This document shows, in pieces, positions 19,045 to 62,906 of a DNA stretch of 64,000 nt. The notes under the pieces were generated by a model. It had not been told where the DNA came from, ran no database searches, and saw only the letters and a list, made by a program, of their open reading frames with translations. How positions within the stretch are numbered: position 1 is the first letter of the stretch; the number at the start of each line of letters is the position of its first letter. The DNA is taken from contig JBAYHI010000001.1 in the NCBI GenBank assembly GCA_041666205.1, positions 26,894 through 90,893 of the forward strand. The letters run 5' to 3'. Made by a program: the position numbers and the translations under genes. Origin of the DNA: Patescibacteria group bacterium (lineage in GTDB: Bacteria; Patescibacteriota; Patescibacteriia; UBA9934).

Positions 19045-19546
19045 ATGATTTATCGTCTAAATGCGCAAACGCCGGCCCAGAGTTGGGTCGGCGCGGAGGA
19101 GGAACAGAAGAGACTAGATGGTCAGCTGCCTGGATGCGGAAGCACTGGTGCAGACTTCATCCTTGCAAACCGCCACGATGTACACGAAGTCCTTGCTAAA
19201 GGTTTCTCCCGCGAACACCCTGTGGGTTTCTGTCGATGCCGATTCTCCCGGAACCGACACTCGCTCGTGCACCGGATGCCCTTTCATCTTGTTCACGAGA
19301 GCTCGAGCCAGATCCTCCGCCATCTTTTTGGTCTCATCGCGTTCGCGCGTGAGCGCGTCGATCCTCCGGCGCAACCACCACACCACGAAGATGCTGAGGG
19401 CGACGTAGAAGAGGGAGAAGATGAGGGAAAGGGTTTGCATGGCAAAATCCTCCAAGCATGCAGGTTTGTCCTGCGGTGAGACGTGCGTCGACGAATCGAC
19501 GGTCATAGAGATGACGAAAAAAGATACCAAGAAAACACCGCCACGT
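19045..19546 (-). other. Unit 1 of a GC-rich tandem cassette: promoter (TTGACG-17-TATCTT at 19521-19549), structured 5' UTR, small-TM-protein CDS, terminator hairpin
   Basis: The unit is repeated at 19547-20060. The non-coding flanks are nearly identical while the coding DNA has diverged. Confidence 0.7.
19114..19440 (-). CDS. Small N-terminal single-TM protein (108 aa), cassette paralog 1
   Basis: GGAGG sits 7 nt upstream of the ATG at 19440. An N-terminal hydrophobic helix is followed by a charged helix (RRRIDALTRERDETKKMAEDLARALVNK) and a Cys/His-containing tail. The ORF-track start at 19530 lies upstream of the RBS and is less likely. Confidence 0.6.
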   Translation of the reverse strand: MQTLSLIFSLFYVALSIFVVWWLRRRIDALTRERDETKKMAEDLARALVNKMKGHPVHERVSVPGESASTETHRVFAGETFSKDFVYIVAVCKDEVCTSASASRQLTI

Positions 19547-20060
19547 CAACGTTTCATTCATCTAAATGCGCAAACGCCGGCCCAGCGAGATGGGCCGGCG
19601 CGGAGAGTGATGAGGAGTGCCTAGTTGGCCGGTCCCAAGAATTTTGCCTTGGTGCAATGACCGTCTGAGTCGTGGGCTTCGGCCACGATGTCAAGGTAAC
19701 CACCTTCATGCATCACATCACGTCCAGCGGGGTGGATAGTGAAGCGATCTTCCCCATCAATGCGTCTGGGTTGAGCACCGCAGACATCTATTCCGTTGAT
19801 CTGGTTGATGAGCGCCTGGGCCAAGACGTCAATAATCTGGTTGGCGAACTTGAGCTCGTCTTCGACCTGCTCCACCCTTTTACTGAAGGAGTAGATGATG
19901 ATGAGGCAGAGGATGCCGATGACAAGGGCGAATCCGGCGAGAAGGGTGTTCATGGTAAGTCCTCCAATGCAGTGTGGGCGTCGATGATTCGACGGTCATT
20001 GAGATGACGAAAAAAGATACCAAGAAATCATTGCCGCGTCAATCGCGCAATCAAAAAACC
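19547..20060 (-). other. Unit 2 of the GC-rich tandem cassette (promoter TTGACG-17-TATCTT at 20014-20042)
   Basis: Same architecture as unit 1. A ccggccca...tgggccgg terminator hairpin sits at about 19575-19605. Confidence 0.7.
19621..19953 (-). CDS. Small N-terminal single-TM protein (110 aa), cassette paralog 2
   Basis: GGAGGA upstream of the ATG at 19953. An N-terminal TM helix precedes LAQALINQINGI, which aligns with LARALVNKMKG of paralog 1. Identity to paralog 1 is only about 25-30% by eye. Confidence 0.6.
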   Translation of the reverse strand: MNTLLAGFALVIGILCLIIIYSFSKRVEQVEDELKFANQIIDVLAQALINQINGIDVCGAQPRRIDGEDRFTIHPAGRDVMHEGGYLDIVAEAHDSDGHCTKAKFLGPAN

Positions 20061-31204: not shown

Positions 31205-32128
31205 ATGGCAAAAACACTCGATAGTTACATCAAAAACTTCCTAGAATATTTGGAAATTGAGCGTGGGCGATCGCCAAAGACAATACGAAATTATGCGTTT
31301 TACTTGAATCGGTTTGCGGAATGGGCAAAAAATCCAGTTCCCTCAAAGATTACGGCCGACATGATTCACGATTATCGCCTCTATCTTAATCGATCAATTG
31401 ATGGGCGAGATGGACAGAATTTGAAGAAAAGCACCCAAAATTATCATTTGATTGCCCTGCGAGCGTTCCTTAAGTATTTAGCAAAAGAAGACGTACGCGT
31501 CATTTCCGCAAATAAGATCGAACTTGCAAAGCAAGGAACGCGCACCGTGGCGTTTTTGGAGCCAGAGGAGCTAGAGCGTCTCCGAGTTGCGCCAAAAGAA
31601 ACAGGAGGAATCATTGGACTCCGCGACCAAGCAATCATTGAAACGTTGTTTTCGGCTGGACTTCGCGTATCAGAACTCGCAAACCTTCGAATTGACGGAA
31701 TCAACTTGAATCGCGACGAGTTTACGATTAAAGGAAAGGGCAGCAAACACCGCGTGGTTTTTCTCTCGCCCGAGGCACGCGCAACCATTCGTGCGTATAC
31801 AAATGCGCGAAAAGACACTTCTCCGCATCTTTTTGTGAGCCATGACCCGGCAAAACGAAAGCGCGGGATTGTGGATCCGCTCACGCCACGCTCAATTCAG
31901 CGCACAATTGATCGCTATGCGCGTCAAGCTGGAATTACCAAGCGAATTACCCCTCACGTGCTTCGTCATACATTCGCAACCGATTTGCTCCGCAACGGAG
32001 CTGACTTGCGTTCCGTGCAGGCGCTTCTTGGCCATGAGTCCATTTCAACCACCCAGATTTACACGCATATTACCGATAAAGAACTCCGAAGAGTCCACAA
32101 AACGTTCCACGATAAGAAGCAGGCTTGA
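31205..32128 (+). CDS. xerC: Tyrosine recombinase XerC/XerD family
   Basis: N-terminal SAM-like domain and a C-terminal catalytic domain with R..HxxR...Y (HVLRHTFATDLL, LGHESISTTQIYTH). Confidence 0.85.
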   Translation: MAKTLDSYIKNFLEYLEIERGRSPKTIRNYAFYLNRFAEWAKNPVPSKITADMIHDYRLYLNRSIDGRDGQNLKKSTQNYHLIALRAFLKYLAKEDVRVISANKIELAKQGTRTVAFLEPEELERLRVAPKETGGIIGLRDQAIIETLFSAGLRVSELANLRIDGINLNRDEFTIKGKGSKHRVVFLSPEARATIRAYTNARKDTSPHLFVSHDPAKRKRGIVDPLTPRSIQRTIDRYARQAGITKRITPHVLRHTFATDLLRNGADLRSVQALLGHESISTTQIYTHITDKELRRVHKTFHDKKQA

Positions 32129-32263: not shown

Positions 32264-32339
32264 GGCGGCTATAGCACAATGGTTAGTGCACTGGGTTGTG
32301 GTCCCAGCTATAAGGGTTCGATTCCCTTTAGTCGCCCCA
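32264..32339 (+). tRNA. tRNA-His (GTG) with extra 5' G(-1)
   Basis: G-1 plus acceptor gcggcta/tagtcgc, anticodon loop ttGTGgt, T arm aaggg-ttcgatt-ccctt, discriminator C then CCA. Confidence 0.8.
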
Positions 32340-32375
32340 TTAAAAAATCTCTGCAAACGCAGAGGTTTTTTAATA
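32340..32375 (+). terminator. Intrinsic terminator after tRNA-His
   Basis: tctctgcaaacgcagagg followed by tttttt. Confidence 0.7.
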
Positions 32376-32494
32376 GTCGTTTAGGAATTGAACCCTTATA
32401 GCTGGTTGAATTCGGGTTCGATGACCAAACGAGCGAGGAAAACAGAATCCTTTTCTGATTTCCGAGCGAGAGCAGAACATCTGGCAAAGCCAGA

Positions 32495-32547
32495 TTCCCT
32501 TTAGTCGCCCCATTGAAAAATCTCTGCAAACGCAGAGGTTTTTTAAT
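32495..32547 (+). repeat. Direct repeat of the tRNA-His 3' end plus terminator (copy of 32322-32374, 1 mismatch); att-like scar
   Basis: 53 of 53 nt match except 1 mismatch. The intervening 120 bp contains an inverted degenerate tRNA-His fragment (32384-32405). Confidence 0.7.
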
Positions 32548-32552
32548 TGTGT

Positions 32553-32587
32553 CGTCGTAGGGACGTTGCCTGCAACGTCCGTGAATC
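32553..32587. repeat. Palindromic intergenic repeat family P, copy 1 (tcgtcgtagggacgttgcctgcaacgtccgtgaat)
   Basis: Core inverted repeat ggacgttgc/gcaacgtcc. Two more copies lie at 58369-58403 and 59711-59742. A perfect 8-bp palindrome gggtggcc/ggccaccc follows at 32593-32614. Confidence 0.7.
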
Positions 32588-32636
32588 TGTTGGGGTGGCC
32601 CAATGTGGCCACCCATTGCTGTTGTTTTATGTTAAT

Positions 32637-41845: not shown

Positions 41846-41922
41846 GATCCTGTAGCTCAACTGGATAGAGCAGGTCCGTCCTAAGGACAAGGTTACAGGT
41901 TCAAATCCTGTCAGGATCACCA
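41846..41922 (+). tRNA. tRNA-Arg (CCT)
   Basis: Acceptor gatcctg/caggatc, anticodon loop gtCCTaa, T arm acagg-ttcaaat-cctgt, plus CCA. Confidence 0.75.
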
Positions 41923-41960
41923 GCCTTCGCTCCTTCGGAGCTACGGCTGGCGGGCCAGCC
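41920..41960 (+). repeat. Conserved about 40-nt hairpin trailer following the tRNA (copy 1)
   Basis: caccagccttcgctccttcggagctacggctggcgggcca is nearly identical to 42187-42227 after tRNA-Ala. Nested stems ccagcc/ggctgg and ctcc-ttcg-gag. Confidence 0.6.
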
Positions 41961-42113: not shown

Positions 42114-42189
42114 GGGCCTATAGCTCAGTTGGTAGAGCGCTGCATTCGCATTGCAGAGGTCGGCGGTTCGAATCCGCCTAGGTCCACCA
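42114..42189 (+). tRNA. tRNA-Ala (CGC) with G3:U70
   Basis: Acceptor gggccta/taggtcc has the G3:U70 alanine identity pair. Anticodon loop ttCGCat, T arm ggcgg-ttcgaat-ccgcc, plus CCA. Confidence 0.85.
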
Positions 42190-42227
42190 GCCTTCACTCC
42201 TTCGGAGTTTCGGCTGGCAGGCCATCC
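42187..42227 (+). repeat. Conserved hairpin trailer after tRNA-Ala (copy 2)
   Basis: caccagccttcactccttcggagtttcggctggcaggcca. Confidence 0.6.
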
Positions 42228-47800: not shown

Positions 47801-47830
47801 GTTGATGTCCCGCTTCGCCGTCAGGTATAA
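44807..47830 (+). CDS. Large surface protein: signal peptide, two ITW-type repeats, Pro/Thr/Glu-rich linker, three carboxypeptidase-regulatory-like domains, TM segments
   Basis: Start at MMNL, overlapping the previous stop. Repeats LDAPNGGESLDYGDAQNITWS and VTSPNGGESYEQGVSRTITWTS. Linker EPPVEPPVEPPTEPPTTPP. CarboxypepD_reg-like patterns (SDGRYFFNVDAGKYFIRVTKPGF; DRKGRYAFMVGPNEYYASFEKPGYE). Confidence 0.7.
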   Translation: MMNLVNRCFFGAVVVTIAFFACGNSVVSAASITNVYDQPSTLLISTASNHNFTIVPTSNIDEGDTLTLTFPSGFTTASITEDDVDIADDSVDLTTASDSCAGAEQASVVMASNILTITVCAGDGGTIAAGSTVAIEIGLNASASGTGANQITNPSAVATYFIALAGTFGDFGSIPIPILSRVGGTASATVPSFAAGGSGEEPSPSYMITLDAPNGGESLDYGDAQNITWSNGAAIPLIDIYYSTDSGASYALIAAGQTNDGLYSWTVPDVTTTRARVRVDGMDGSATLATDASDADFTIIGSSIGADYLVTVTSPNGGESYEQGVSRTITWTSGSLISTVNILYSTNGGSSYTSIASGESNDGAYTWTVPVVVTADAKIKIEGIVGALQISSDESDGAFSITAPVVIEEPEPEIPPVEPPVEPPVEPPTEPPTTPPTESPTTPPVTPPGGAEPGTETPATPSPTTTEIEGVEHEVNVTVTTEDGSIALGGDEGAYVLPGMPVLVRVIAEDTEKIEDVSVTIGNRTYMPSEVSDGVYVVSAPIAGGVTNVTVITTYTDGETTSTVGLAQMGYGIVYEIVDDAWVPVSGALVTVQDWSGVNNPAITGSDGAVGWYAPNGSYTVRVEKEGYETKEVGLSVSNNVLAPNVELTKTAEEIIEEVIPGETIVPVVVSETVQVISQSVTQVATAVSDAVIAVRENQAVQDVATVATPVMVVSAVSSAAVLSTSFNLWPILQYLFTAPILFFARRRRQNFGIVYNSITKVPIDLAVVRLYDAQAKLVRTMVTDSDGRYFFNVDAGKYFIRVTKPGFTFPSAYLSGVKADGNFVDIYTQGYLEVTEQSVIIAANIPLDPVSEEGAKATKRIRKDKILRVFQNSVALAGIILAIYIVVIQPSAFSWLMLGVQVLLYVGTKLLIRPRKKKGWGIVYGAEDRSPIANAIVRLFEPKYHKLLETAITDRKGRYAFMVGPNEYYASFEKPGYETREVRPIDYRNKKELTPISVDVPLRRQV

Positions 47831-47916
47831 TGAGGAAAGATTTCGTATTGCGGGAGGTGGATTTTTACGAATGCACCTCTTGCTGTATGAAGCATGAGGA
47901 TTCCTTCTTGAACCGG

Positions 47917-50900
47917 ATGAAAAAAATCGCACGTTTGTTCGTGATCGTGTTTGTTTTTGCGTTTGCATTTGGTGTTACGGCTCCTAAACTTCTCAATGCA
48001 AATGCTGCCGCATCACCAAGCAATATTATTGGCTACCAAGGTCGACTTTTAAATGCAAACGGCGTTCCCCTTACCGACGCGACGGTTGATGTGATCTTTC
48101 GACTTTATACGGCGTCTTCCGGTGGTTCGTGTTTGTGGTCAAACTCTTCGGCTACATGTGCATCAGCCACCGCGCGAAGCGTAACGCTTACAGATGGGCT
48201 TTTTTCTGAAAATCTTGGTGACACGGGAAGTTCTTACGCGGCGATTGCAAGCACGGTATTTGGAGATAATGCAGCGGTCTACTTGGATGTAAATGTGGAG
48301 GGCGAGAGCCTATCGCCTCGTCGTCTTTTGGTTGCGGCGCCATATGCCTTGAATGCACAAACGCTCGATGGAATTGATTCTACGGCATTTGCGCTTCTTA
48401 CAAGTACCGATTTGGATGACGCATATAATAATTTCACTACGAATGCGGCTGTCATCAATATCGACGACAATAACAACGATACGAATGCAGGCCTCACATT
48501 TCTTTCTGCAAACGATACGATCGTTGGGGGCACCATGCTCCAAATTACCAACAACGACACGACCAATAATCCAACAACACTTGCAATCACCAATACCAGC
48601 ACGGGTAGTGGCTTGGCAGTGACGCAGTCCGGGGCAGGGGTTGGGGTTGCAATTACCCAAAACGGTGCTTCAACCGGGCTTACCCTTTCACAAACAACAG
48701 ATTCAATCGCTTTTGGGCTCACTTCCAGTTCAACAACAGCGAATGTTTTTGATATTTCTTCCGGGACGACTTCAGGAAAGATTTTTGATATAACAACGTC
48801 CGCGCTGACGACTGGGAAAATATTTGATCTCACAACGTCCGCGCTGACCACGGGAACGATTTTGGATATTGGAATCACTTCGGAAAATGTGAGTACGGCC
48901 GATATTATTCGCGCATCACATACAAAAATCATCGACACAACCCAGGCGATTTCTGGCAACATGATTGATTTCGAGCGTGTCTTGATGTCAGATACGGGTG
49001 GGGATGTTACCATTTCGGGCGACATGGTAAGTCTCGTAAGCGCAGGTTCAGCGTCTGGCGGTACGCTTACGGATTCGTCAAATGTTCTTTTTGCAAAACA
49101 AGATTATGCCTCCGCAACCGGTGCTGTCATTAATATCGATAACGACGGTGTCGGAGAAGGAATCTGGATTGAACAAGATGGCGATGGTCGCGGAATGTTT
49201 ATTAACCAAGATGGCGCTGGAATTGGTTTGGAAATTGATGCAGAAGCCACGGCATATTCGGGACTTTATGTGAATAGCGCGGCCACTGGCGCCAATGCGA
49301 TTGATTTTATTGGGAGTACGAATACTGGCAAGTTATTAAATCTCACCGCAAACTCCCTCACAACTGGTGTAGGGATTGATTTAGCAACGACGTCTACCTT
49401 GCTTACAAGCGGGGACCTCATTCAAGCGGATCATAGCGCAACGTATACGACCACGAAGACGCTTGACGGGAACTTATTGGATTTAAGTCGTAATCTTACA
49501 ACAAACGGGGCAGGGGCTCTCACATTGAGTGGTGCGCTTGCAACGCTTTCAAATACAGGAACGCAAACCGCAGGGACGCTCACGGATTCATCAAATATTC
49601 TTTTCCTCGATCAGAATTACGCAGCCTCAACCGGGGCGGCACTTCTCATTGATTCCGAATCACTAACAGGTCCATCGATTCAGGTGGATAGCGTTGCCAC
49701 AACTGGGAGCACGGTGGTTGTGAATGCGCCAAGCACAACCACGGGTACGATTTTGAGCATCACCGGCGGTAACTTTACTGACGATTCTGGGTTAGCACTT
49801 GCCATTGACGTGACGGAATCCACTGAGACGGCAAATATTTTGAATATTCAAACAGATTACAGCTCTGGTAATAATAACGTGTTCCGAATTGAAGCCGACG
49901 GCGAAGCATTTAGCGATATTGGGTTCACAGCTGGAGCATTTTCAACAAATTATTACGATGGATCCATTACCTCAACTGGCGCGTTCACCTACGAAGCGGC
50001 AACGAGTTTTACCTGGCAAGACGACGCGGTTGGCCCAAATACACTCATGACGCTCACAGATCTTGGAACGAACGCAACCCTGAGTGTCACAGGGGACTTG
50101 TTTATCGACAAAAATGACAATGATGTCGCTCTAGAAATCGACAGCGAATCCACAACAACCAATGTTTTTGCGCTCAATGCTGATCCAAATCTTTCAGGGA
50201 ATGTTCTTGACATGAGCGCCGATGGATTAACATCCGGAAATGGTTTGGATATTCAAAGTACGTCAACGGCGCTTACAAGCGGAGATCTCATCCAAGCCGA
50301 CCACACGGCAACGTATGGATCTGGCACAGTCAGTGGAAACCTACTTGATCTAACGCGAGCAATCGCAGGTACAGCAACGGTAAACGGATCACTTGCAACA
50401 CTCGCAAGTACAAATAGTGGGAGTGTAACGGATAGCGCAAATATTTTGTTCCTCGATCAGAATTACGCAGCCTCAACCGGGGCGGCACTTCTCATTGATT
50501 CCGAATCACTGACAGGTCCATCGATTCAAGTGGATAGCGTTGCGACAACCGAAAATACGGTGGTTGTGAACGCACCAAGCACAACAACCGGAACAATTTT
50601 GAGCATCACTGGTGGGAACTTTACCGACGATTCCGGATTGGCGCTTGCCATTGACGTTGGGGAATCAACCGAAACAGCAAATATTTTGAATATTCAAACA
50701 GATTACAGTTCTGGCAATAATAACGTGTTCCGAATTGAAGCCGACGGCGAAGCATTCAGCGACATTGGATTTACTGCTGGCTCGTTCTCGACAAATTATT
50801 ACGATGGATCCATTACTTCGACCGGAGCGTTTACATATGAGTCTGCTACGAGTTTTACTTGGCAAGACGACGCGGTTGTCCCGAATACACTCATGACCCT

Positions 50901-53900
50901 CACAGATCTTGGAGCAAATGCAACCTTGAATGTTACAGGCGACCTATTCATTGATAAGAACGATAATGATGTAGCACTCGAAATTGATAGTGAATCTACA
51001 ACGACGAACGTTTTTGTCCTAAATGCGGATCCGAACCTTTCAGGGAACGTCTTTGACATGAGTGCCGATGGATTGACCTCTGGGAATGGCTTAGATATTC
51101 AAAGTACGTCAACGGCGCTTACAAGTGCAGATCTTATCCAAGCTGACCACACGGCAACGTATGGATCGGGAACAGTCAGTGGAAACCTACTTGATCTAAC
51201 GCGAGCAATCGCAGGTACAGCGACGGTCAATGGAGCGCTTGCGACGCTTTGGAGCAAAAATACGGGGAGCGTCACTGATTCCGCAAATATTTTGTTCTTG
51301 GACCAAGATTTCGCGACGTCCACAGGTTCTGCACTCAAAATTGATACGACAACAAGTGCCGGAAAAGCCATTGAGGTTCTTGCTGACAATTTCGGCGGCA
51401 GCGGGAGTGCTATTTCTGTATCACTTGATAATTTGAATGACGGGACAGGGTTTTTACTTGATTCAACATCTGCAAATATTTCCTCTGGTAAGCTCGCAAA
51501 CTTGAGCCATGCCGGAACCTATACGACCGGCGGACCAGTTTCTGGCAATATCCTTGCTGTTTCACGTGCTGTGCAAGTAGATAATGGCCCGTATATTACG
51601 GACGTCACAGGTTCGGTATTTGCGCTATCAAGCAATAATGGAACACTTGGCGGAACCATGAACGACAGTGCGCAAGTGCTTTCAATTTCGCAGTTATATA
51701 CTGGCGCAACGGGTGATGTTTTGAATATCAATAATGACTCAACCGCTTCAACCTCAATCGGCATTCTTGCCGACAGTACGACGGGCACGGTTTTTTCCGC
51801 AACCGCAAATGCGCTCACAACCGGAAATGGTATTGATTTGACAACTGCCTCCACCGTGCTTACGAGTTCGGATCTTATTCAAGTCGATCACACCGCAACA
51901 TATGGGTCTGGCACGATTTCGGGAAATATTCTTGATTTAAGTCGCGCAATTGCAGGCACAGCAACGGTCAATGGAGCGCTTGCCACGCTTGCGAGTACAA
52001 ATAGCGGAAGCGTGACAGATGGAGCAAATATTCTATTCCTCGATCAAAATTACACGGCGTCAACCGGAGCGGCACTGCTTATTGATTCAGAATCGACTGC
52101 TGGTTCCTCGATTGCTATTTTAAGTTCTGCCACCACCGGGGACACGCTTGAAGTGAACGCCTCTGCGACAACAAGCGGGAATATTTTGGATATTGGTGCA
52201 AACGCTGTTGCAAACGGGAAGGTAATCGATATTGATAATAGCGCGCTTACCACAGGATCCATCATTGATATCATCACGGATTCCGGCGCGATCTCTTCTG
52301 GAGATCTTATTCAAATGAATCACAATGGCAGTTATTCCACCAATGTCGGGTTAAGTGGCAGTTTTATGGATTTTACTCGTGACCTTACGAGCACGGCCAA
52401 TACGCTCACCGTTACCGGGCCGATGGTTGAATTCCACAGCGATGGCACGGTTTCGGGAGGGGCGGTGACGGATTCATCAAATATTTTATTCCTGAACCAG
52501 GACTACGAGGCATCAACTGGCGCATCACTTGCGATCGATTCAGAATCACTCACGGGCCCGTCCATTCAAATTGATAGTGCAACGACGACGGGAAATACAC
52601 TTGTTTTCAATGGGGATTATGTAACAACGGGCGCGGTGGAAGTACTAAGTGCAGACCGGTTGACTTCCGGGAATATTCTCGACCTTTCAAGTACTTCCAC
52701 GGTATTGGAGGGGAGCGACTTCATTCAAGGTGATCACACCGCAACATACGTTACAAGCAAAACAATCACCGGCAACCTGCTTGATTTGAGCCGAAACCTT
52801 ACGCTCAACGATGCAGGAAGCGGATATACGCTAGGGATCACCGGAGCACTCGCAACTCTTGCCAATACGGGGACTCAAACATCCGGTACACTCTCGGATT
52901 CCTCAAATATTTTGTTCCTCGATCAAAACTACGCCGCGTCAACTGGCGCGGTGCTCGCAATTGATTCTGAGGCAACATCGAGCAATGCACTTTTGATTGA
53001 TGCTGCAAACACCGATACCGCAGTTATTGCAGCCAATGGCGATAGTTTGACGACTGGAAATCTTCAAACCATGAGCGCTGATGCTCTTACAACTGGCAAT
53101 GGGATCGACATTTCAACAACATCTACGGCGCTCACAAGTTCTGACTTATTCCAGGCCGACCATACAGCAACCTATACAACCACAACGAACGTTACGGGAA
53201 ATCTTTTAGACTTACGTCGTATTCTAACAATCAACGATGGTGGGTCTGACGATCAAACGCTCACATCAAGTGGTGCACTTGCCTATATTCAAAGCGCCAC
53301 AACCGATACATCGGGAGCACTTGCAATTACGGCGCCGCTTCTTTGGCTCGATGAAGACTCTACTGCTTCCACGAATACGATTTTAAAAATTGATTCCGCT
53401 TCCACATCAACAACCGCCATTGGAATCACCGCGGATGCGCAAACAACAGGAAACGGTATTCTTATGAGCGTTGATGGGATGACAACCGGATCTGCTCTAT
53501 ACATTGAGCGTGGGGACGGGGCAACACAATTCTCTGATACTACGGAGGGATTGGCCTATATCGCTCAATTGGACGATAACTCCAATGGTCATATTTTGCA
53601 GGTGAAGAGCAATGGGAGCGGTGGGATATTGGGATATTATAATCACACAGGTCTCAATTCAACGGATCCTGTTTTGAAGGTAATCTCAAATAGCGTAGCA
53701 GATTCGGCAAATGAAGGAATCAATGGATTTGTTGCGGAGTTTATCAATAATAGTGCGGATACAGGTTTAGATAACCGCATGGGGATCATGATCCAGGCCT
53801 GTAAAGACGATGGTGCAACAACAGCATGTAATTTTCTTGAATTCCGCGATGGTGATGGAACGGCAATGGGGGCTGTTGAAGCAAATGGAGCCGGTGGTGT

Positions 53901-55917
53901 TACTTTGCGTAGCGGAAGCGCGGACTATGCCGAATATTTTAATGGCAATCCAGCACTTTTCCCAGAAGGAGTTATTGCCGGCATTCAATCCGATGGTTCC
54001 GTAGCGCCAGCAATCACGGATGAATCTGTAATTGGTGTCCGTTCAATCTCGCCGATTGTATTAGGAGGCGTAAGCGAGGGTGAGTCTATTGCCAATAAAG
54101 TAACGGTTGGTTTGTTTGGCCAGATTCGCGTGAATGTTAATAATGAAGGTGGTGCAATTACAGCAGGCGACTACATTACGGTTTCGTCAGTCCCCGGCGT
54201 TGGGAAGAAGGCAACGGAATCGGGAAAAGTCGTGGGTCAAGCGCTTGAATCCATTGATGGATCGGGCCTCATCAAAGTTTACGTTGCCCCACATTGGCAG
54301 GGAATTAATTTCCTCGCCTCCGACGGAAGTGCAACAACGGTTGCAACCGATTTCATTGTCGACGCTGTCGGCCCGGCCACAGAAAGCTCTGCCTCTGCAT
54401 CACGCTCACTCATCCTGCGCGGTTCAGCCTGGGTTGATGGCGCTTCTGCCTCAACCGATATGGTCATTTTGAACGACGTAACGGATAGTTCTGACTATGG
54501 ATTGAGCGTTTCAAATAACGATGGATCTGAAGTGGCTAATTTGAGCAATAATGGCGATTTGGCAATTGCGGGGAACCTGTATCCATCAGATCGAGGAGTT
54601 TTGCAAACGGAAAAGTATATTTATTACGATGGCTCAACTGGCGTTGGTGGCGATTTAATGCGCACAAATGCCTCGGGATGGGGAACAGGATCATATGACT
54701 TTGCCGAAATGTTCCCGTCAAGTGATTCACTCGCAGCTGGCGAACTTGTGATTTTTGGAAGCAGCAATGAAAGCGTTGCGCGGTCAAGTGGCGCAACATA
54801 CGATCAAATGATTGCCGGTGTGGTTTCAACAAAACCTGGATTCTTAGCCGGTGAAAACAATCCTGGCGATGTGCCGGTGGCTCTTGCGGGTCGTGTTCCA
54901 ACCTATGTGAGTGGGGAAAACGGTTCCATCGCACCTGGTGATCCACTTACATCTTCTACAAAGCCGGGTTATGCCATGAAGGCTACGACTGCTGGACCAA
55001 TCGTTGGCTACGCCATGGAAGCGTTTGATGGAAATACCGGCGTTGTGATTGCGTTCATTCGCCCTTCCTATTATGACGGCGCAACCGATTTGGCTGATGC
55101 CCCGGCTGCAGACAATTCCGCCTCAGAACTTGAAGGTGTTTCCACGCTCAATTTATCGCAAATGCATGATTTGGCAGGTGGAAAACTTATCAATGTTGGT
55201 AGTCTCTCTGGGTTGGCTGGGGCGTGGACATTATCCGAAAACGGGAACTTTGCAACGAGTGGTGACATCAAACACGTCGTAACTTCTTATCAAAATGAGA
55301 AGATCGATACGTACGCTTCTCTTTCTCGCGAACAAACGATTCAATTATCTGGTACCGTGGACATGCAAAATGGATTTGCTAGCGTCACATTTGAAGATGT
55401 AGACGAAAAATTCAATGATGTGATTTCAAATATTGCCCCGTATCGAGTGCTTATTACACCAGAAGGACTTTCGGGACAGCTCTACGTATCAAATCGTGAC
55501 CAAAATGGATTCACGATTCAAGAAAATGGCGGTTCATCGAATGTGAAAGTTGATTGGCTCGTGATCGCCTACGAAAAAGATAAGGAGCCGGAGCAAGAAT
55601 CGCTCATCCCAGAAGATAATATCCCAGCCGAAGAAACGCCTATCGTTTCGGATCCAGTGAGCAATGACGCTGGGACAACCCCAGGGTTGTCCGTACCTGG
55701 GGAATCGCCGGAGGAAATAATTCCTTCGCAAGATCCCATCGTTGATCCAGACGTAGGGACAACTCTAGAGTTGTCCGTGCCAAATGAACCAACCGAAATC
55801 GTCGAACCGATCATTGAAACGCCAACCGAACCGATCATCGATAATTCGTTGATTAATGACGTAGGGACAACCCCAGGGTTGTCCGTACCGGAAGAATCAA
55901 CGATCATTACGGAATAA
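47917..55917 (+). CDS. Giant (about 2660-aa) Thr/Ser/Gly/Asn-rich repeat surface protein
   Basis: Single uninterrupted ORF. Start chosen at MKKIARLFVIVFVFAFAFG (signal peptide); alternatives are 47830 and 47887. It is built from about 280-aa degenerate repeats, including two near-identical 846-bp tandem copies. The C-terminus has three [ND]D[AV]GTTPGLSVP[GE]ES repeats. Confidence 0.8.
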   Translation: MKKIARLFVIVFVFAFAFGVTAPKLLNANAAASPSNIIGYQGRLLNANGVPLTDATVDVIFRLYTASSGGSCLWSNSSATCASATARSVTLTDGLFSENLGDTGSSYAAIASTVFGDNAAVYLDVNVEGESLSPRRLLVAAPYALNAQTLDGIDSTAFALLTSTDLDDAYNNFTTNAAVINIDDNNNDTNAGLTFLSANDTIVGGTMLQITNNDTTNNPTTLAITNTSTGSGLAVTQSGAGVGVAITQNGASTGLTLSQTTDSIAFGLTSSSTTANVFDISSGTTSGKIFDITTSALTTGKIFDLTTSALTTGTILDIGITSENVSTADIIRASHTKIIDTTQAISGNMIDFERVLMSDTGGDVTISGDMVSLVSAGSASGGTLTDSSNVLFAKQDYASATGAVINIDNDGVGEGIWIEQDGDGRGMFINQDGAGIGLEIDAEATAYSGLYVNSAATGANAIDFIGSTNTGKLLNLTANSLTTGVGIDLATTSTLLTSGDLIQADHSATYTTTKTLDGNLLDLSRNLTTNGAGALTLSGALATLSNTGTQTAGTLTDSSNILFLDQNYAASTGAALLIDSESLTGPSIQVDSVATTGSTVVVNAPSTTTGTILSITGGNFTDDSGLALAIDVTESTETANILNIQTDYSSGNNNVFRIEADGEAFSDIGFTAGAFSTNYYDGSITSTGAFTYEAATSFTWQDDAVGPNTLMTLTDLGTNATLSVTGDLFIDKNDNDVALEIDSESTTTNVFALNADPNLSGNVLDMSADGLTSGNGLDIQSTSTALTSGDLIQADHTATYGSGTVSGNLLDLTRAIAGTATVNGSLATLASTNSGSVTDSANILFLDQNYAASTGAALLIDSESLTGPSIQVDSVATTENTVVVNAPSTTTGTILSITGGNFTDDSGLALAIDVGESTETANILNIQTDYSSGNNNVFRIEADGEAFSDIGFTAGSFSTNYYDGSITSTGAFTYESATSFTWQDDAVVPNTLMTLTDLGANATLNVTGDLFIDKNDNDVALEIDSESTTTNVFVLNADPNLSGNVFDMSADGLTSGNGLDIQSTSTALTSADLIQADHTATYGSGTVSGNLLDLTRAIAGTATVNGALATLWSKNTGSVTDSANILFLDQDFATSTGSALKIDTTTSAGKAIEVLADNFGGSGSAISVSLDNLNDGTGFLLDSTSANISSGKLANLSHAGTYTTGGPVSGNILAVSRAVQVDNGPYITDVTGSVFALSSNNGTLGGTMNDSAQVLSISQLYTGATGDVLNINNDSTASTSIGILADSTTGTVFSATANALTTGNGIDLTTASTVLTSSDLIQVDHTATYGSGTISGNILDLSRAIAGTATVNGALATLASTNSGSVTDGANILFLDQNYTASTGAALLIDSESTAGSSIAILSSATTGDTLEVNASATTSGNILDIGANAVANGKVIDIDNSALTTGSIIDIITDSGAISSGDLIQMNHNGSYSTNVGLSGSFMDFTRDLTSTANTLTVTGPMVEFHSDGTVSGGAVTDSSNILFLNQDYEASTGASLAIDSESLTGPSIQIDSATTTGNTLVFNGDYVTTGAVEVLSADRLTSGNILDLSSTSTVLEGSDFIQGDHTATYVTSKTITGNLLDLSRNLTLNDAGSGYTLGITGALATLANTGTQTSGTLSDSSNILFLDQNYAASTGAVLAIDSEATSSNALLIDAANTDTAVIAANGDSLTTGNLQTMSADALTTGNGIDISTTSTALTSSDLFQADHTATYTTTTNVTGNLLDLRRILTINDGGSDDQTLTSSGALAYIQSATTDTSGALAITAPLLWLDEDSTASTNTILKIDSASTSTTAIGITADAQTTGNGILMSVDGMTTGSALYIERGDGATQFSDTTEGLAYIAQLDDNSNGHILQVKSNGSGGILGYYNHTGLNSTDPVLKVISNSVADSANEGINGFVAEFINNSADTGLDNRMGIMIQACKDDGATTACNFLEFRDGDGTAMGAVEANGAGGVTLRSGSADYAEYFNGNPALFPEGVIAGIQSDGSVAPAITDESVIGVRSISPIVLGGVSEGESIANKVTVGLFGQIRVNVNNEGGAITAGDYITVSSVPGVGKKATESGKVVGQALESIDGSGLIKVYVAPHWQGINFLASDGSATTVATDFIVDAVGPATESSASASRSLILRGSAWVDGASASTDMVILNDVTDSSDYGLSVSNNDGSEVANLSNNGDLAIAGNLYPSDRGVLQTEKYIYYDGSTGVGGDLMRTNASGWGTGSYDFAEMFPSSDSLAAGELVIFGSSNESVARSSGATYDQMIAGVVSTKPGFLAGENNPGDVPVALAGRVPTYVSGENGSIAPGDPLTSSTKPGYAMKATTAGPIVGYAMEAFDGNTGVVIAFIRPSYYDGATDLADAPAADNSASELEGVSTLNLSQMHDLAGGKLINVGSLSGLAGAWTLSENGNFATSGDIKHVVTSYQNEKIDTYASLSREQTIQLSGTVDMQNGFASVTFEDVDEKFNDVISNIAPYRVLITPEGLSGQLYVSNRDQNGFTIQENGGSSNVKVDWLVIAYEKDKEPEQESLIPEDNIPAEETPIVSDPVSNDAGTTPGLSVPGESPEEIIPSQDPIVDPDVGTTLELSVPNEPTEIVEPIIETPTEPIIDNSLINDVGTTPGLSVPEESTIITE
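49590..51281 (+). repeat. Two near-identical in-frame tandem repeats of 846 bp (282 aa) inside the giant ORF
   Basis: The 49606 ctcgatcagaattacgcagcctcaaccggggcggcacttctc string recurs at 50452; period 846 nt. Protein segments TDSSNILFLDQNYAASTGAALLIDSESLTGPSIQVDS ... are near-identical. Confidence 0.85.
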
Positions 55918-58368: not shown

Positions 58369-58403
58369 TCGTCGTAGGGACATTGCGTGCAACGTCCATG
58401 AAT
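58369..58403. repeat. Palindromic repeat family P, copy 2
   Basis: atcgtcgtagggacattgcgtgcaacgtccatgaat; followed by the perfect 14-bp inverted repeat gtagagacgcgatt/aatcgcgtctctac at 58415-58442. Confidence 0.7.
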
Positions 58404-58459
58404 AATGCATTTTTGTAGAGACGCGATTAATCGCGTCTCTACTTGCATCTGTACATATT

Positions 58460-58533
58460 CCGTCATCCTGAGCGATAGCGAAGGATCTCTCGAAGATTAT
58501 CCTGGGATTCTTCGCTGCGCTCAGAATGACGAA
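58460..58533. repeat. REP/MITE-like inverted pair of family R units (left arm 58460-58487, right arm 58506-58533)
   Basis: ccgtcatcctgagcgatagcgaaggatc ... gattcttcgctgcgctcagaatgacgaaac: the arms are reverse-complementary, with about 23 of 28 positions pairing. Confidence 0.65.
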
Positions 58534-58584: not shown

Positions 58585-59658
58585 ATGCTGAGAGTTGGAA
58601 TTGTTGGCCTCCCAAATGTTGGAAAATCAACGTTTTTCACTGCGCTTACACGCAAGACTGTGGATTGCGCCAATTTTCCGTTTTGCACCATTGAGCCAAA
58701 CGTGGGCGTTGTTGAGGTGCCTGATGCTCGAGTGGATGTACTCACACAGATGTCACACTCAAAGAAGCGCATTCCAACCGCAATTGAATTTTTGGACATT
58801 GCTGGACTCGTTAAAGGCGCGCACAAAGGCGAAGGCTTGGGCAATAAGTTTTTGGCAAATATCCGTGAAACCGATATGATTGCGCACGTTGTTCGTGCAT
58901 TTGAAAACTCCGATATCATCCACGTCGATGGATCGGTGAATGCAATTCGAGATGCTGAAGTCATCGAAACCGAGCTCATGATGGCGGATTTGACAACCGT
59001 CGATAAACGCTACGACGCGATTGAACGTCGCGCGCTTGCAACCAAAGAAACCGCGCTTGTCACGGAAGTTGCTGGCCTCAAGAAATTTAAAGATGCGCTT
59101 GAGAGCGGAAAAATGGCGTCAACGGTGGTTTTGACCGACGATGAATATCTTATTCTCAAGGATTTACAGCTCATGACACAAAAACCCATGCTCTATATTG
59201 TGAATGTATCGGAAGACGAATTCAAAAAAGGGGATTGGAAATCGCCATTTGGACCAGATAAAATTGCAATTCCGATTTCTGTGAAAATTGAAGCAGAACT
59301 CTCCGCTATGCCTCCTGAGGAAGCAAAAGAGATGATGGGTGAGTTTGGAATGAAAGAGTCAGGCCTTGATTCCGTGATCCGAACCGCGTACGGAATGCTC
59401 GATCTCATTACGTATTTCACAACCGGCGAAGATGAAACACGCGCATGGACCATTAAGAAGGGCACAAAAGCGCCACAAGCAGCCGGCGTTATTCACACAG
59501 ACTTTGAAAAAGGATTTATTCGAGCCGAAGTGATTGGCTACGATGATTTCATCGCTTGCGATGGGGAAGTAAAAGCACGCGAAACCGGCAAATTGCGAGT
59601 TGAAGGAAAAGAATACGTCATGAAAGACGGGGATATTTGTCATTTTCGATTTGCGTAG
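58585..59658 (+). CDS. ychF: Ribosome-binding ATPase YchF (Obg-family)
   Basis: G1 motif GIVGLPNVGKST, the YchF-specific NxxD region and a C-terminal TGS domain. Confidence 0.9.
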   Translation: MLRVGIVGLPNVGKSTFFTALTRKTVDCANFPFCTIEPNVGVVEVPDARVDVLTQMSHSKKRIPTAIEFLDIAGLVKGAHKGEGLGNKFLANIRETDMIAHVVRAFENSDIIHVDGSVNAIRDAEVIETELMMADLTTVDKRYDAIERRALATKETALVTEVAGLKKFKDALESGKMASTVVLTDDEYLILKDLQLMTQKPMLYIVNVSEDEFKKGDWKSPFGPDKIAIPISVKIEAELSAMPPEEAKEMMGEFGMKESGLDSVIRTAYGMLDLITYFTTGEDETRAWTIKKGTKAPQAAGVIHTDFEKGFIRAEVIGYDDFIACDGEVKARETGKLRVEGKEYVMKDGDICHFRFA

Positions 59659-59680
59659 GGGTCGGATTTCTCGACCCGCT

Positions 59681-59742
59681 CGGGCGAGGGAACCTCGCCC
59701 GTACGATGATTCGCCGTAGGGACGTTGCGTGCAACGTCCATT
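59681..59742. repeat. Palindrome cgggcgagg-gaac-ctcgcccg followed by repeat family P, copy 3 (59711-59742)
   Basis: tcgccgtagggacgttgcgtgcaacgtccatt. Confidence 0.7.
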
Positions 59743-59799
59743 CTTTAAACGAAAAAGCGGCTCTGCGAGACGATTGCAGATGCCGCTTGGGGGAGAGAG

Positions 59800-60608
59800 T
59801 CACCAGCCTGGAATTTCACCGGCGGTGATTTTTTTGTCCGGCTGGACTTTTTCCCCTCGTAGAACGCGATCGGCCACAACCACAGCGCTCAAGACTTCCG
59901 TGACGTACCTTGTGCCCTGACTCTCATCCTTTCGGATTCGAGCCGGGCCCTTGTTGTACGCCTTGAGCCCAAGCTCACGACTCTGGAAACTCGTTTCGTA
60001 GACTCGAAGGGTTTCGAGTCCGATCACGATGTTTTCCAGATCGCTTGCTGTGGCATCGACCTCATCTTGCCCAAGTTTTCTCGCCGCGACCGCCTTTGCC
60101 TGGTCTGGCGCAAGGCTGATTTGCATGAGGCCTTGGCTTAGTTGCTTACAGCCATGGCTCTCATGTGTGATGATTCCGAGCGCAAATGCGAGTGGGTAGC
60201 CCGAGATTTTCGCAGCCTTTTCAATGACCGCGCGCTTCCTGAGGCACTTCCTCACGGATGCTTCCTCTCCGAGTCGATCCCGATTGTAGATTCGGGTGAC
60301 GCTTGGGAGGATGCTCGTATCGAAGGTTGAAACGCCCCTATGGGGCACAACCTTCTTGGTCGTCGGGTTTTGGGGCTGAGGTTTTTTTGCGCTCTTCGGC
60401 TTCTCGGCCGGCTTCTGCTTCACGACGGAAATCTGTTCCGCCGTAGCGTGTCGCCGGTCGACTCGAACGGTGACGGTTTCCTCTACAGCGGGCGCTGCGA
60501 GGACGATTTCTTCCTCCGCGGGTGCGGAGAAGGCTCCATAGAAGGCGAGGGCTCTGGCCATGAAATAGACCAGGCCGATCATGAGGCAGAAAATGAAGTT
60601 TTTCACTT
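59800..60608 (-). CDS. Secreted lytic transglycosylase (SLT domain), GC-rich
   Basis: SLT family-1 motifs (ITHESHG ... GLMQISL). The proposed start is GTG at about 60608, preceded by GGAGA, giving signal peptide VKNFIFCLMIGLVYFMARALA. The ORF-track ATG at 60693 is an alternative. The GC rise coincides with the ORF. Confidence 0.65.
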
Positions 60609-60679
60609 CAATCTCCGATTTGGGGTAGGATTTTTGAGGGGAAATTTGAAAAGGGCAGGGCAATAAAATATCACAAAAA

Positions 60680-60712
60680 AGCCGTTTTGTCAACGGCTTT
60701 TGTGTAATATTG
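60680..60712. terminator. Intrinsic terminator for the methyltransferase gene
   Basis: aaaaaagccgttttgtcaacggcttttgtg. Confidence 0.6.
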
Positions 60713-62069: not shown

Positions 62070-62121
62070 GTGTCCGTAGTCTCGGCGCATGAACCCCGGC
62101 GGCTTTTAAACGAGGTGTCCG

Positions 62122-62790
62122 ATGGCATCCATCGCTACCCTGGCCTCCTTCCTCGGCACTATCCAGAAGTTTCTGGGCATTTCGGCAAAGGACGGCCTGC
62201 CCGACGAATTCTACCAGAGGGTGATTGACGACCCTGTATTTCGCGGGCAGTTTGTCGCATGGGCGCAGGTTGAGCTTAACTCTACGGTTATCGCCGAACA
62301 TGACTCAGCACCGGCAGCGCGGAGCCTGCAGTCGATGATCGACCGGATGCGACGGAATCCGGTAGCGGATCCTGAAACCAGGCTAACGATCCCTCAGGTT
62401 GTGTGGGTGCTCGATCGCATCGTCAATGACGTTAAGGACCACGGTGTCCAATCGCTGTCGTTGAAAAGCGAGCATTGGCGGCGCTGGGTGATCAACATGA
62501 TCCCCGAGCTCACCTTTGATCGTGATGTCGAAGACGCCTTGAATGCGTTCGTCCGAGAATTCCACCTGGAGCTCCTTGATAGTCGGCTTATCGGGCAGAA
62601 CTCAAGGGATCTTGCGAACATGGGAGTGATTCAGGTGGAGGTCGTGAACGGAATCACGATGTACAATCCCAACCTTCCGTCTGGCTCCCAGGCAACCGTG
62701 GCGAGCATCCGACGCTGGGGCGTGCGTGGGACTACTCCTGTCCAGGCCGTTTACCGCAGCGCGCTCGTCGAGAGTGGCAATTGGGCGTAA
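62122..62790 (+). CDS. Hypothetical cytoplasmic protein, GC-rich
   Basis: 222-aa ORF with GAGG 7 nt upstream of the ATG; no TM segment or recognised motif. The GC rise begins about 50 nt upstream and persists to about 62900. Confidence 0.55.
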   Translation: MASIATLASFLGTIQKFLGISAKDGLPDEFYQRVIDDPVFRGQFVAWAQVELNSTVIAEHDSAPAARSLQSMIDRMRRNPVADPETRLTIPQVVWVLDRIVNDVKDHGVQSLSLKSEHWRRWVINMIPELTFDRDVEDALNAFVREFHLELLDSRLIGQNSRDLANMGVIQVEVVNGITMYNPNLPSGSQATVASIRRWGVRGTTPVQAVYRSALVESGNWA

Positions 62791-62906
62791 CCCCGTGAAC
62801 ATCTGCCTGCGAAGCAGACCTGCCGCATCTGCGGTGTGATCTCTCCATGTGAGGTCATGCCGGTCTCGGGTGCGGTTCTTTTATTTGGGGAGCTTCGCCT
62901 CTGGGC

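What the first reader, a model, noticed from the sequence alone, without database searches (positions are those of the whole stretch)
32553..32614. Three-copy palindromic intergenic repeat family (core GGACGTTGCGTGCAACGTCC), each copy paired with a different perfect palindrome
The roughly 35-nt sequence tcgYcgtagggacRttgcStgcaacgtccRt occurs at 32553-32587, 58369-58403 and 59711-59742. All three copies are intergenic, just after a stop codon or terminator. Each sits beside a distinct strong palindrome (gggtggcc/ggccaccc; gtagagacgcgatt/aatcgcgtctctac; cgggcgagg/cctcgcccg). A conserved 9-bp inverted repeat with a 2-nt centre looks more like a dimeric protein-binding site or a mobile REP-like element than a plain terminator, since there is no T-tract. 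Two copies bracket ychF and lie next to the GC-rich SLT gene, so a role in the insertion of foreign DNA is conceivable.
Basis: seen in the sequence. Interest (0 to 1): 0.55.

Follow-up and report, generated by a model that had tools for sequence, protein, structure and literature searches.

The report
GTAG-tagged REP hairpins with RAYT transposase
The three repeats are real, but they are ordinary members of a known class: small GTAG-tagged hairpin repeats (REPs) that go with a domesticated single-strand-DNA transposase (RAYT), found here in a Patescibacteria genome.

Summary
Three about 35-nt copies lie at 32552-32586, 58369-58403 and 59711-59745, all on the + strand and all intergenic; none is expected by chance.

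That tag is the signature of GTAG-tagged REPs. The core also occurs in many phyla, mostly as the 28-nt "double-foot" palindrome GTAGGGACGTTGCATGCAACGTCCCTAC. In five Bacteroidota/Kapaibacterium loci it sits in frame inside a small HUH/Y1 gene. This matches the published TnpA_REP subclass 2.4 (RAYT group 4).

The matching RAYT is in the same metagenome sample and the same NCBI MAG accession block, on a contig of identical composition. One REP lies upstream of it and one lies in frame inside it.

Three more REPs with a different inner stem sit in frame in the tail of the 2695-aa protein. Several neighbouring palindromes are other REP types.

No evidence supports a dimeric operator or a role in inserting foreign DNA.

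Verdict: new member of a known kind, low interest.

The parts
32552..32586 (+). REP copy 1: TCGTC-GTAG-GGACGTTGC-ct-GCAACGTCC-GTGAAT (tag plus hairpin core 32557-32580)
   Evidence: (D9)
58369..58403 (+). REP copy 2: TCGTC-GTAG-GGACATTGC-gt-GCAACGTCC-ATGAAT (core 58374-58397; one A.C mismatch in the stem). It starts 6 nt after the stop codon of the TPR gene.
59711..59745 (+). REP copy 3: TCGCC-GTAG-GGACGTTGC-gt-GCAACGTCC-ATTCTT (core 59716-59739). Its core is identical to the three copies around the RAYT gene on the second contig.
55669..55696 (+). Intragenic REP variant with a degenerate tag: GCTG-GGACAACCC-ca-GGGTTGTCC-GTAC. It lies in frame in the C-terminal tail of the 2695-aa ORF (peptide AGTTPGLSVP).
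   Evidence: (D8)
55753..55779 (+). Intragenic REP variant: GTAG-GGACAACTCT/AGAGTTGTCC-GTG, in frame (peptide DVGTTLELSVP).
55861..55888 (+). Intragenic REP variant, nearly 'double foot': GTAG-GGACAACCC-ca-GGGTTGTCC-GTAC, in frame (peptide DVGTTPGLSVP).
58415..58442 (.). Partner of copy 2: the perfect 28-nt 'double-foot' GTAG palindrome GTAGAGACGCGATTAATCGCGTCTCTAC. This is a different REP sequence type. A related peptide (QTRLIAS, not an exact match to the palindrome's VETRLIASL; the exact shared stretch is TRLIAS) occurs in the insert of RAYT homologue P0091.
59655..59677 (+). GTAG-GGGTCG-gatttct-CGACCC hairpin overlapping the ychF stop codon. The same stem type (GTAG-GGGTCGGGT...) is seen in L130.
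59681..59704 (-). Partner of copy 3: CGGGCGAGG-gaa-CCTCGCCCG followed by TAC. On the - strand this reads as a GTA-tagged hairpin.
32593..32614 (+). Partner of copy 1: untagged hairpin GGGTGGCC-caatgt-GGCCACCC. It is flagged as terminator-like. Its relation to the REP family is not shown.
58461..58531 (.). Inverted pair of CGTC-tagged units (CGTCATYCTGAGCG..GCGAAGRATC) that folds into a long hairpin. It belongs to the same REP mosaic between the TPR gene and ychF.

Best explanation
The three copies are GTAG-tagged repetitive extragenic palindromes (REPs): a 9-bp stem and 2-nt loop with an unpaired GTAG directly 5' of the stem. They belong to the REP family tied to TnpA_REP subclass 2.4 (RAYT group 4). 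This is an HUH/Y1 single-strand-DNA transposase that carries a copy of its own REP in frame between its HuH and Tyr motifs.

Inferred mechanism, taken from work on other RAYT subclasses: when the strand is single-stranded, for example as lagging-strand template, the REP folds into a hairpin. The RAYT recognises the hairpin plus the GTAG 'foot', then cleaves and rejoins the strand through its catalytic tyrosine. This is how REPs are copied or maintained at new sites, mostly just downstream of genes and sometimes in frame in tolerant protein tails.

The host is a Patescibacteria MAG. Its single detected RAYT lies on another contig. The neighbouring palindromes are largely other REP types, so these intergenic regions are small REP mosaics.
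For: Shown:
1. Three copies share a 24-nt GTAG+hairpin core plus R-T; none is expected by chance.
2. In the 82 kb examined, GTAG is the tetramer most often followed directly by a hairpin among tetramers with 8 or more cases (9 of 276 GTAGs).
3. The scan pattern (GTAGGGAC/TTGC/GCAA/GTCC fixed, four positions free) hit more than 120 loci in Cyanobacteria, Bacteroidota, Balneolales, Kapaibacterium, Neomarinimicrobiota and Cardiobacteriaceae. Most carry the 28-nt double-foot palindrome with an AT loop.
4. In 5 of these loci the palindrome lies in frame in a roughly 200-aa HUH protein. The motifs are PNH[VI]HG, WQxRFHDH and YIxNNP. The NCBIfam model 'REP-associated tyrosine transposase' matches at E 5e-17 to 3e-19.
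5. This is exactly the published subclass 2.4: motifs NH[IFV]H / WQ / YIxNNP, 'long' and 'double foot' GT[AG]G REPs, and REPs inserted in frame in tnpAREP (PMC6006769).
6. A RAYT (P0001) lies on contig k141_119754 of the same sample, ERZ27249449, as the window's contig. It has one REP upstream, one in frame inside, and one 5 kb away. All three cores are identical to window copy 3.
7. That contig matches the window in composition: tetranucleotide r = 0.971, the same as for the window's own flanks, against 0.71 or less for unrelated loci.
8. Its NCBI protein (MFA6522564.1, a 171-aa start variant of P0001 in the same 90% cluster; 'Patescibacteria group bacterium') falls in the same accession block as the window's proteins, MFA6522005 to MFA6522056.
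9. All 5 extragenic copies lie just downstream of a gene or tRNA, on its sense strand.
10. The intragenic variants keep the tag, the outer stem and the geometry but change the inner stem on both arms.

Inferred: the cleavage and strand-transfer mechanism comes from E. coli, S. maltophilia and Marinomonas RAYTs, which are other subclasses (PMC3479197, PMC8266576).
Against: - Copy density is low: 3 canonical copies in 82 kb and 3 in 20.5 kb. This does fit the low repeat counts reported for group 4 (about 14 occurrences of flanking 16-mers; PMC5581495).
- No inverted REP doublets (REPINs) of this sequence were seen.
- No presence/absence polymorphism was observed. The only other assemblies of this region are the same strain (99.66% identical, REPs identical), so mobility is not demonstrated.
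- The RAYT is not in the window. Its assignment to the same genome rests on sample, composition and accession block, not on a closed genome.
- The RAYT scores 65.6 bits against the NCBIfam cut-off of 80. The model matches in two stretches, on either side of the in-frame REP insert. Its Tyr motif reads YIANNV rather than YIxNNP.
- Among the papers I consulted, none reports an activity test of a subclass 2.4 RAYT.
Confidence: 0.85

Rival explanations
1. The main role is at the RNA level: the hairpins sit in 3' untranslated regions and act as transcript stabilisers or T-tract-independent terminators. This does not exclude a REP origin and could be an exapted function.
For: All 5 extragenic copies are immediately downstream of a gene or tRNA and on its sense strand. 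The hairpins are stable, with fold z-scores of -3.6 to -4.5 for the regions. Copy 3 is flagged as terminator-like. Such roles have been proposed for REPs (PMC3733652).
Against: This genome's usual terminators are A-tract/hairpin/T-tract structures. Copies 1 and 2 lack a T-tract. Copy 1 follows a complete terminator. Related copies lie inside ORFs and inside the RAYT gene, where termination would be harmful. An RNA role does not explain the conserved GTAG tag or the link to a RAYT.
Confidence: 0.25
2. It is an operator: a 9-bp inverted repeat with a 2-nt centre bound as double-stranded DNA by a dimeric regulator that controls the adjacent genes.
For: Symmetric 9+2+9 architecture. Copy 1 (upstream of the exonuclease III gene) and copy 2 (upstream of ychF) lie upstream of a gene start.
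Against: The conserved flank is asymmetric: GTAG on the 5' side only. The adjacent genes are functionally unrelated. The same core occurs in very distant phyla and in frame in coding sequence. Family members keep the stem geometry with a different inner sequence, which a sequence-specific double-strand binder would not tolerate.
Confidence: 0.03
3. The copies mark insertion of foreign DNA: they are att-like or recombination sites bracketing ychF and the GC-rich SLT gene.
For: Two copies flank ychF. The SLT gene is 54-58% GC against 47% overall. Copy 1 lies near a Xer-type recombinase gene and a duplicated tRNA-His 3' end.
Against: ychF is a core gene, and the neighbourhood continues with S6-SSB-S18, EF-P, FtsK, RecA and RpoBC. 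The recombinase scores as a housekeeping XerC/XerA/XerD type. The direct repeat at the tRNA is the tRNA 3' end plus terminator, not the REP. Another GC-rich stretch (62.0-63.0 kb) has no REP beside it.
Confidence: 0.03

Closest known systems
REPs of TnpA_REP subclass 2.4 (Quentin et al. 2018, PMC6006769), also called RAYT group 4 (Bertels et al. 2017, PMC5581495)
   Same: - 5' GT[AG]G tag plus a long perfect hairpin.
- 'Double-foot' GTAG...CTAC forms in relatives and at 58415-58442.
- RAYT with NHFH / WQ / YIxNN motifs.
- REP inserted in frame between the HuH and Tyr motifs.
- Low copy number.
- Scattered across Cyanobacteria, Bacteroidetes and other phyla.
   Different: - The host is a Patescibacteria (CPR) MAG.
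- The window copies are single-foot, with 3' R-T instead of CTAC.
- The stem foot has GG/CC rather than three G-C pairs.
- I found a REP on only one side of the RAYT gene.
- The Tyr motif ends NNV instead of NNP.
GTAG-tagged REP superfamily (Di Nocera et al. 2013, PMC3733652)
   Same: - Unpaired GTAG at one end.
- Stem of 6-13 bp and loop of 2-3 nt.
- Mostly downstream of ORFs.
- Several families coexist in one genome.
- Intragenic in-frame copies are known.
- Clustering with other REP types.
   Different: That survey did not report GTAG REPs in Bacteroidetes or Patescibacteria. I did not match this stem sequence to any of its 24 numbered families, because the figure is not held as text.
E. 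coli REP/BIME and Pseudomonas REPIN-RAYT systems
   Same: Hairpin plus GTAG recognised as single-stranded DNA by a HUH/Y1 enzyme. The REPs are extragenic and sit in mosaics with other REP types.
   Different: - E. coli REPs have bulged imperfect stems and hundreds of copies.
- REPINs are inverted doublets.
- Here the stems are perfect, the copies are singletons and the copy number is low.
IS200/IS605 subterminal hairpins
   Same: Related transposase fold and single-strand hairpin recognition.
   Different: There is no element with two ends carrying its own transposase. The RAYT looks single-copy in the roughly 100 kb I could examine.

Membership tests
GTAG-tagged REP superfamily | Short (20-40 bp) stem-loop with a 6-13 bp stem and a short loop | tested here: met
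   9-bp stem and 2-nt loop in all three copies. Predicted as hairpins when the strand is folded as DNA.
GTAG-tagged REP superfamily | Conserved unpaired GTAG at one end of the hairpin | tested here: met
   GTAG is invariant in all 6 canonical copies. The 3' side is R-T, not CTAC, so the tag is unpaired. GTAG is enriched in front of hairpins.
GTAG-tagged REP superfamily | Multiple dispersed copies, mainly extragenic and downstream of ORFs | tested here: met
   6 canonical copies in about 102 kb of the genome. 5 are extragenic, and all of those are downstream of a gene or tRNA on its sense strand. P(5 or more of 6 intergenic) = 3e-5. The total copy number in the genome was not measurable.
TnpA_REP subclass 2.4 / RAYT group 4 REPtron | A RAYT with NH[IFV]H, WQ and YIxNNP motifs in the same genome | tested here: met
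   P0001 has PNHFH, WQPRFYEH and YIANNV; the last residue deviates. NF047646 matches at E 4e-18, 65.6 bits, below the cut-off of 80. Same sample, tetranucleotide r = 0.971, and same NCBI accession block as the window's proteins. Assignment to the same genome is inferred; the genome is not closed.
TnpA_REP subclass 2.4 / RAYT group 4 REPtron | Cognate REP flanking the RAYT gene and/or inserted in frame between the HuH and Tyr motifs | tested here: met
   L129 has a REP at 9926-9949 (+), 52 nt upstream of the gene, and one at 10249-10272 (-) in frame (peptide MDVARNVPT). No REP was found downstream of the gene.
TnpA_REP subclass 2.4 / RAYT group 4 REPtron | The RAYT cleaves and joins the single-stranded REP | not testable with these tools
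   This needs an in vitro cleavage and strand-transfer assay.
REPIN (inverted REP doublet) | Two copies of the same REP in inverted orientation, 20-100 bp apart, forming a long hairpin | tested here: not met
   All three window copies are on the + strand and are singletons. Their neighbours are different sequences. The CGTC-tagged pair at 58461-58531 is such a doublet, but it belongs to another family.
Intrinsic (rho-independent) terminator | GC-rich hairpin directly followed by a T-tract | tested here: not met
   Only copy 3 has a T-rich tail. Copies 1 and 2 have none. The genome's terminators are A-tract/hairpin/T-tract structures.
CRISPR array | Regularly spaced direct repeats with unique spacers | tested here: not met
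   Start-to-start spacings are 25,817 and 1,342 nt.
Rfam RNA families | Match to a curated covariance model | tested here: not met
   Only the five tRNAs reach gathering score in the window.

The most novel reading that the evidence does not exclude
The RAYT gene with its REP embedded in frame may be a self-contained unit that moves between phyla. That would explain why the same 24-28-nt core is found from Cyanobacteria and Bacteroidota to a reduced Patescibacteria genome, while the RAYT proteins carrying it are only about 45% identical. In this host the REPs would also act as in-frame cassettes (DVGTTPGLSVP) that repeatedly remodel the C-terminal tails of giant surface proteins, giving a source of surface variation.
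Probability: 0.15. Interest if true: 0.5.

Novelty: new member of a known kind. Interest (0 to 1): 0.25.

Why it matters
The finding explains a puzzling palindrome as part of a known system, and it removes the speculative link to foreign-DNA insertion.

Modest added value:
- It documents a subclass 2.4 REP/RAYT pair in a small Patescibacteria genome.
- It shows that the REP core is conserved across distant phyla far better than the transposase protein.
- It gives clear cases of REPs tolerated in frame in the tails of surface proteins.

These points are useful for annotation, because they help avoid spurious small ORFs and assembly breaks at REPs. They also bear on how RAYT/REP pairs co-evolve.

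Tried and rejected
- A regular expression for HUH...Y..NP proteins in the 120 loci found nothing, because the REP inserts and motif variants broke the pattern. All-against-all clustering of ORFs then found the RAYT family.
- tblastn of those RAYTs against the window found no RAYT there; the best E-value was 0.28.
- The metagenome scan with the window-specific pattern gave only 2 contigs, one of them the RAYT locus. The collection evidently lacks the sample that holds the window's strain.
- Extending the window by 7.8 kb and 9.9 kb found no further copies.
- Orthologous-site comparison failed because L122 is the same strain (28 differing alignment columns over 8.3 kb, 19 of them one 9-nt gap plus a run of N in L122, none in a REP).
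- Rfam gave only tRNAs.
- The strand bias relative to GC skew is suggestive, not significant: 5 of 6 canonical copies have GTAG on the G-rich strand.
- Rejected readings: CRISPR, intrinsic terminator consensus, operator, att site. Reasons are in the membership and rival sections.

Full report
**1. Observation**

The repeat is real. The repeat tool reports three 35-nt copies at 32552-32586, 58369-58403 and 59711-59745, 83-91% identical and all on the + strand (family D9). The 20-mer core matches with 1, 1 and 0 mismatches. None of 100 dinucleotide-preserving shuffles gave a match.

- Copy 1 has loop CT.
- Copy 2 has one A.C mismatch in the stem.
- Copy 3 is the exact core.

All three are intergenic, although only 8.6% of the window is intergenic (P = 6e-4). 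The three neighbouring palindromes are as described.

**2.

Every copy has an unpaired GTAG directly 5' of the 9-bp stem. The 3' side is R-T, not the complement CTAC.

CGTAGGGAC occurs five times in the window against 0.25 expected. The two extra sites, plus a third with a degenerate tag, lie at 55669-55888. They have the same architecture but a different inner stem: GTAG-GGACAACCC-ca-GGGTTGTCC-GTAC. They sit in frame in the C-terminal tail of the 2695-aa ORF 47830-55917, giving the peptide DVGTTPGLSVP (D8, 9, 18, 46).

In the 82 kb examined, GTAG is the tetramer most often followed directly by a hairpin among tetramers with at least 8 cases: 9 of 276 GTAGs.

The partner of copy 2 is itself a perfect 28-nt GTAG...CTAC palindrome (58415-58442). 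Next to copy 3 there is a GTAG-GGGTCG...CGACCC hairpin and a GTA-tagged GGGCGAGG hairpin on the opposite strand. The 221-nt spacer between the TPR gene and ychF also holds an inverted pair of CGTC-tagged units. These intergenic regions are therefore small mosaics of different REP-like hairpins.

**3. Related sequences**

The hits came from:
- Cyanobacteria: Trichodesmium, Okeania, Dapis, Spirulina, Leptolyngbya, Prochloron. Several contigs per genome were hit in Trichodesmium, Okeania and Dapis.
- Many Bacteroidota.
- Balneolales, Kapaibacterium, Neomarinimicrobiota and a Cardiobacteriaceae MAG.

158 of 198 matches have the same 24-mer. 146 continue with CTAC, giving the 28-nt palindrome GTAGGGACGTTGCATGCAACGTCCCTAC.

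Clustering the ORFs of these loci showed a pattern in five Bacteroidota/Kapaibacterium loci. There the palindrome lies in frame (GRDVACNVPT or VGTLHATSL) in a roughly 200-aa protein. Its motifs are PNH[VI]HG, WQxRFHDHIIR and YIxNNP. This protein matches the NCBIfam model 'REP-associated tyrosine transposase' at E 5e-17 to 3e-19. The score is below the cut-off; the model matches in two stretches, on either side of the insert.

**4. Literature**

This is a described system.
- Di Nocera et al. 2013 defined the GTAG-tagged REP superfamily: stems of 6-13 bp, short loops, location mostly downstream of ORFs, and known intragenic copies (PMC3733652).
- Quentin et al. 2018 defined TnpA_REP subclass 2.4, which is Bertels' RAYT group 4. 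Its motifs are NH[IFV]H, WQ and YIxNNP. It occurs in Cyanobacteria, Bacteroidetes and various other phyla. It has 'long' and 'double foot' GT[AG]G...C[TC]AC REPs. Uniquely, REPs are inserted in frame in the tnpAREP gene between HuH and Y (PMC6006769).
- Bertels et al. 2017 report low repeat counts for group 4 (PMC5581495).

**5. The cognate RAYT in the source genome**

The window has no RAYT. A metagenome scan with the window-specific single-foot pattern found a contig (L124). On it, a REP with the same flank (GTCCGTGAA) lies upstream of a 171-aa RAYT that also carries the REP in frame.

The identical protein (P0001, a 167-aa start variant) is encoded on contig k141_119754 (252 kb). That contig comes from ENA sample ERZ27249449, the same sample as the window's contig k141_1431597 (288 kb).

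The 20.5 kb around it (L129) resembles the window closely:
- GC is 47.9% against 47.3%.
- The tetranucleotide signature correlates with the window at r = 0.971. That equals the value for the window's own flanks (0.971); unrelated loci give 0.71 or less.
- NCBI holds the window's proteins as MFA6522005, -036, -051 and -056, and the RAYT as MFA6522564. All are named 'Patescibacteria group bacterium' and fall in one accession block, which points to one MAG.

L129 has three REPs whose 24-nt cores are identical to window copy 3:
- One after tRNA-Gln, 52 nt upstream of the RAYT.
- One inside the RAYT, on the opposite strand.
- One between a cytidylyltransferase gene and uvrB.

I conclude that the window's repeats are the REPs of this RAYT. 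The assignment to the same genome is inferred from binning-type evidence.

**6. Intragenic copies**

The tail of a homologous protein from the sample that also holds the window's strain (L130) carries four in-frame GTAG hairpins. Their stems are GGGTCGGGT, GGACAGGTCG, GGACAACCCC and GGACAACCCT. The flanks ATGAC...GTACCTG are conserved, as in the window.

The homologue in another Patescibacteria MAG (P0121/L131) has an acidic tail without any GTAG hairpin. So the REPs were added to tolerant tails in this lineage. This agrees with published intragenic REPs.

Among the 39 of the 120 listed RAYT homologues in which both the HuH and WQ motifs could be located, the inserts are highly variable and contain REP-derived peptides. 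Examples are RDVARNVST, VGTLHATSL and VETLRATSL. QTRLIAS in P0091 is related to the partner palindrome at 58415-58442.

**7. Mechanism**

The anatomy and the association with a RAYT are shown here. The chemistry is inferred from other subclasses. E. coli, S. maltophilia and Marinomonas RAYTs bind the folded single-stranded REP. They need the GTAG motif at the foot of the hairpin. They cleave and join the strand via the HUH/Tyr centre (PMC3479197, PMC8266576).

All five extragenic copies are on the sense strand just downstream of a gene or tRNA. Five of six canonical copies have GTAG on the locally G-rich strand. That is compatible both with a lagging-strand-template bias and with transcription into 3' UTRs. 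The numbers are too small to decide.

**8. Rivals**

- A role as RNA stabiliser or terminator is possible as a secondary function. It cannot explain the tag, the RAYT link or the copies inside ORFs. Only copy 3 has a T-rich tail.
- A dimeric operator is unlikely: the flank is asymmetric, the inner stem varies among family members, copies lie in coding sequence, and the core is spread across phyla.
- A role in foreign-DNA insertion is unsupported. The SLT gene is only moderately GC-rich. The neighbourhood consists of core genes. The nearby recombinase is Xer-type.

**9. Limits**

- Only about 102 kb of the genome could be read, so the copy number is unknown.
- No strain comparison was possible, because L122 is the same strain. 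Mobility is therefore not shown.
- Among the papers I consulted, none reports an activity test of a subclass 2.4 RAYT.

**10. Verdict**

This is a new member, in a Patescibacteria host and in single-foot form, of a known kind. Interest is low to moderate.

Noticed in passing
window 32265-32550: The last 20 nt of tRNA-His plus its terminator (58 nt) are duplicated 173 nt downstream (32320-32377 against 32493-32550, 97% identical). The 115 nt between them begin with an inverted copy of the tRNA T-arm (32384-32405 against 32304-32325, 95%). This looks like the scar of a small integrated element or rearrangement at the tRNA, next to a Xer-type recombinase gene (31205-32128). REP copy 1 starts 2 nt after the second terminator.
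   Followed up: partly
window 58461-58531: An inverted pair of CGTC-tagged units (CGTCATCCTGAGCGATAGCGAAGGATC and CGTCATTCTGAGCGCAGCGAAGAATC) folds into one long hairpin (fold of the 101-nt region -21.6 kcal/mol, z = -4.6). It resembles the published CGTC-tagged REP superfamily and a REPIN-type doublet. This is the only copy in the window.
   Followed up: partly
window 41920-41960 and 42187-42227: The same roughly 40-nt structured trailer (CCAGCCTTCGCTCCTTCGGAGCTACGGCTGG...) follows tRNA-Arg(CCT) and tRNA-Ala(CGC) and uses the CCA end in its outer stem. The inner stem shows a change on both sides (GCTCC/GGAGC against ACTCC/GGAGT). It may be a tRNA 3' processing or termination element, or another repeat family.
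   Followed up: no
window 47830-55917: A 2695-aa ORF with 741-846-nt tandem repeats (49.0-53.5 kb, 74-87% identical). It has a weak N-terminal match to the NCBIfam 'mosaic adhesive trimer family chimeric fiber protein' (E 4e-6, below cut-off). It is preceded by a 1039-aa CarboxypepD_reg-domain protein. Both are probably cell-surface proteins.
   Followed up: partly
L127 14155-17127 (about 1-4 kb upstream of the window start on the same contig): Six tandem small genes with T4SS_pilin (PF18895) hits. This fits a Patescibacteria (CPR) host.
   Followed up: no
window 59800-60700 and 62000-63000: Two stretches of 55-58% GC in a 47% GC window: the SLT-domain gene and a 222-aa ORF with no family match on record. 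Only the first has a REP beside it.
   Followed up: partly
L132 (Logan SRR6484324 contig): An independent assembly of the same strain begins 128 nt upstream of the exonuclease III gene, at about window position 32518. This is inside the duplicated tRNA/terminator and REP region, which suggests that these repeats break short-read assemblies.
   Followed up: no
L001, L008, L013, L016, L034, L039 and others (Trichodesmium and other Microcoleaceae): In these cyanobacteria the 28-nt palindrome sits within a longer conserved unit (cataaccaaaacctt-GTAGGG...CCCTAC-tgtggtctac...). There it appears to be part of a larger repeated element.
   Followed up: no
window 19045-20042: Two adjacent small ORFs (19045-19479 and 19672-20007) are each followed by a 65-nt repeat (19485-19549 against 19978-20042, 89%). 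Each also starts with a similar GC-rich hairpin (19070-19093 and 19575-19600). They are probably tandem paralogues.
   Followed up: no
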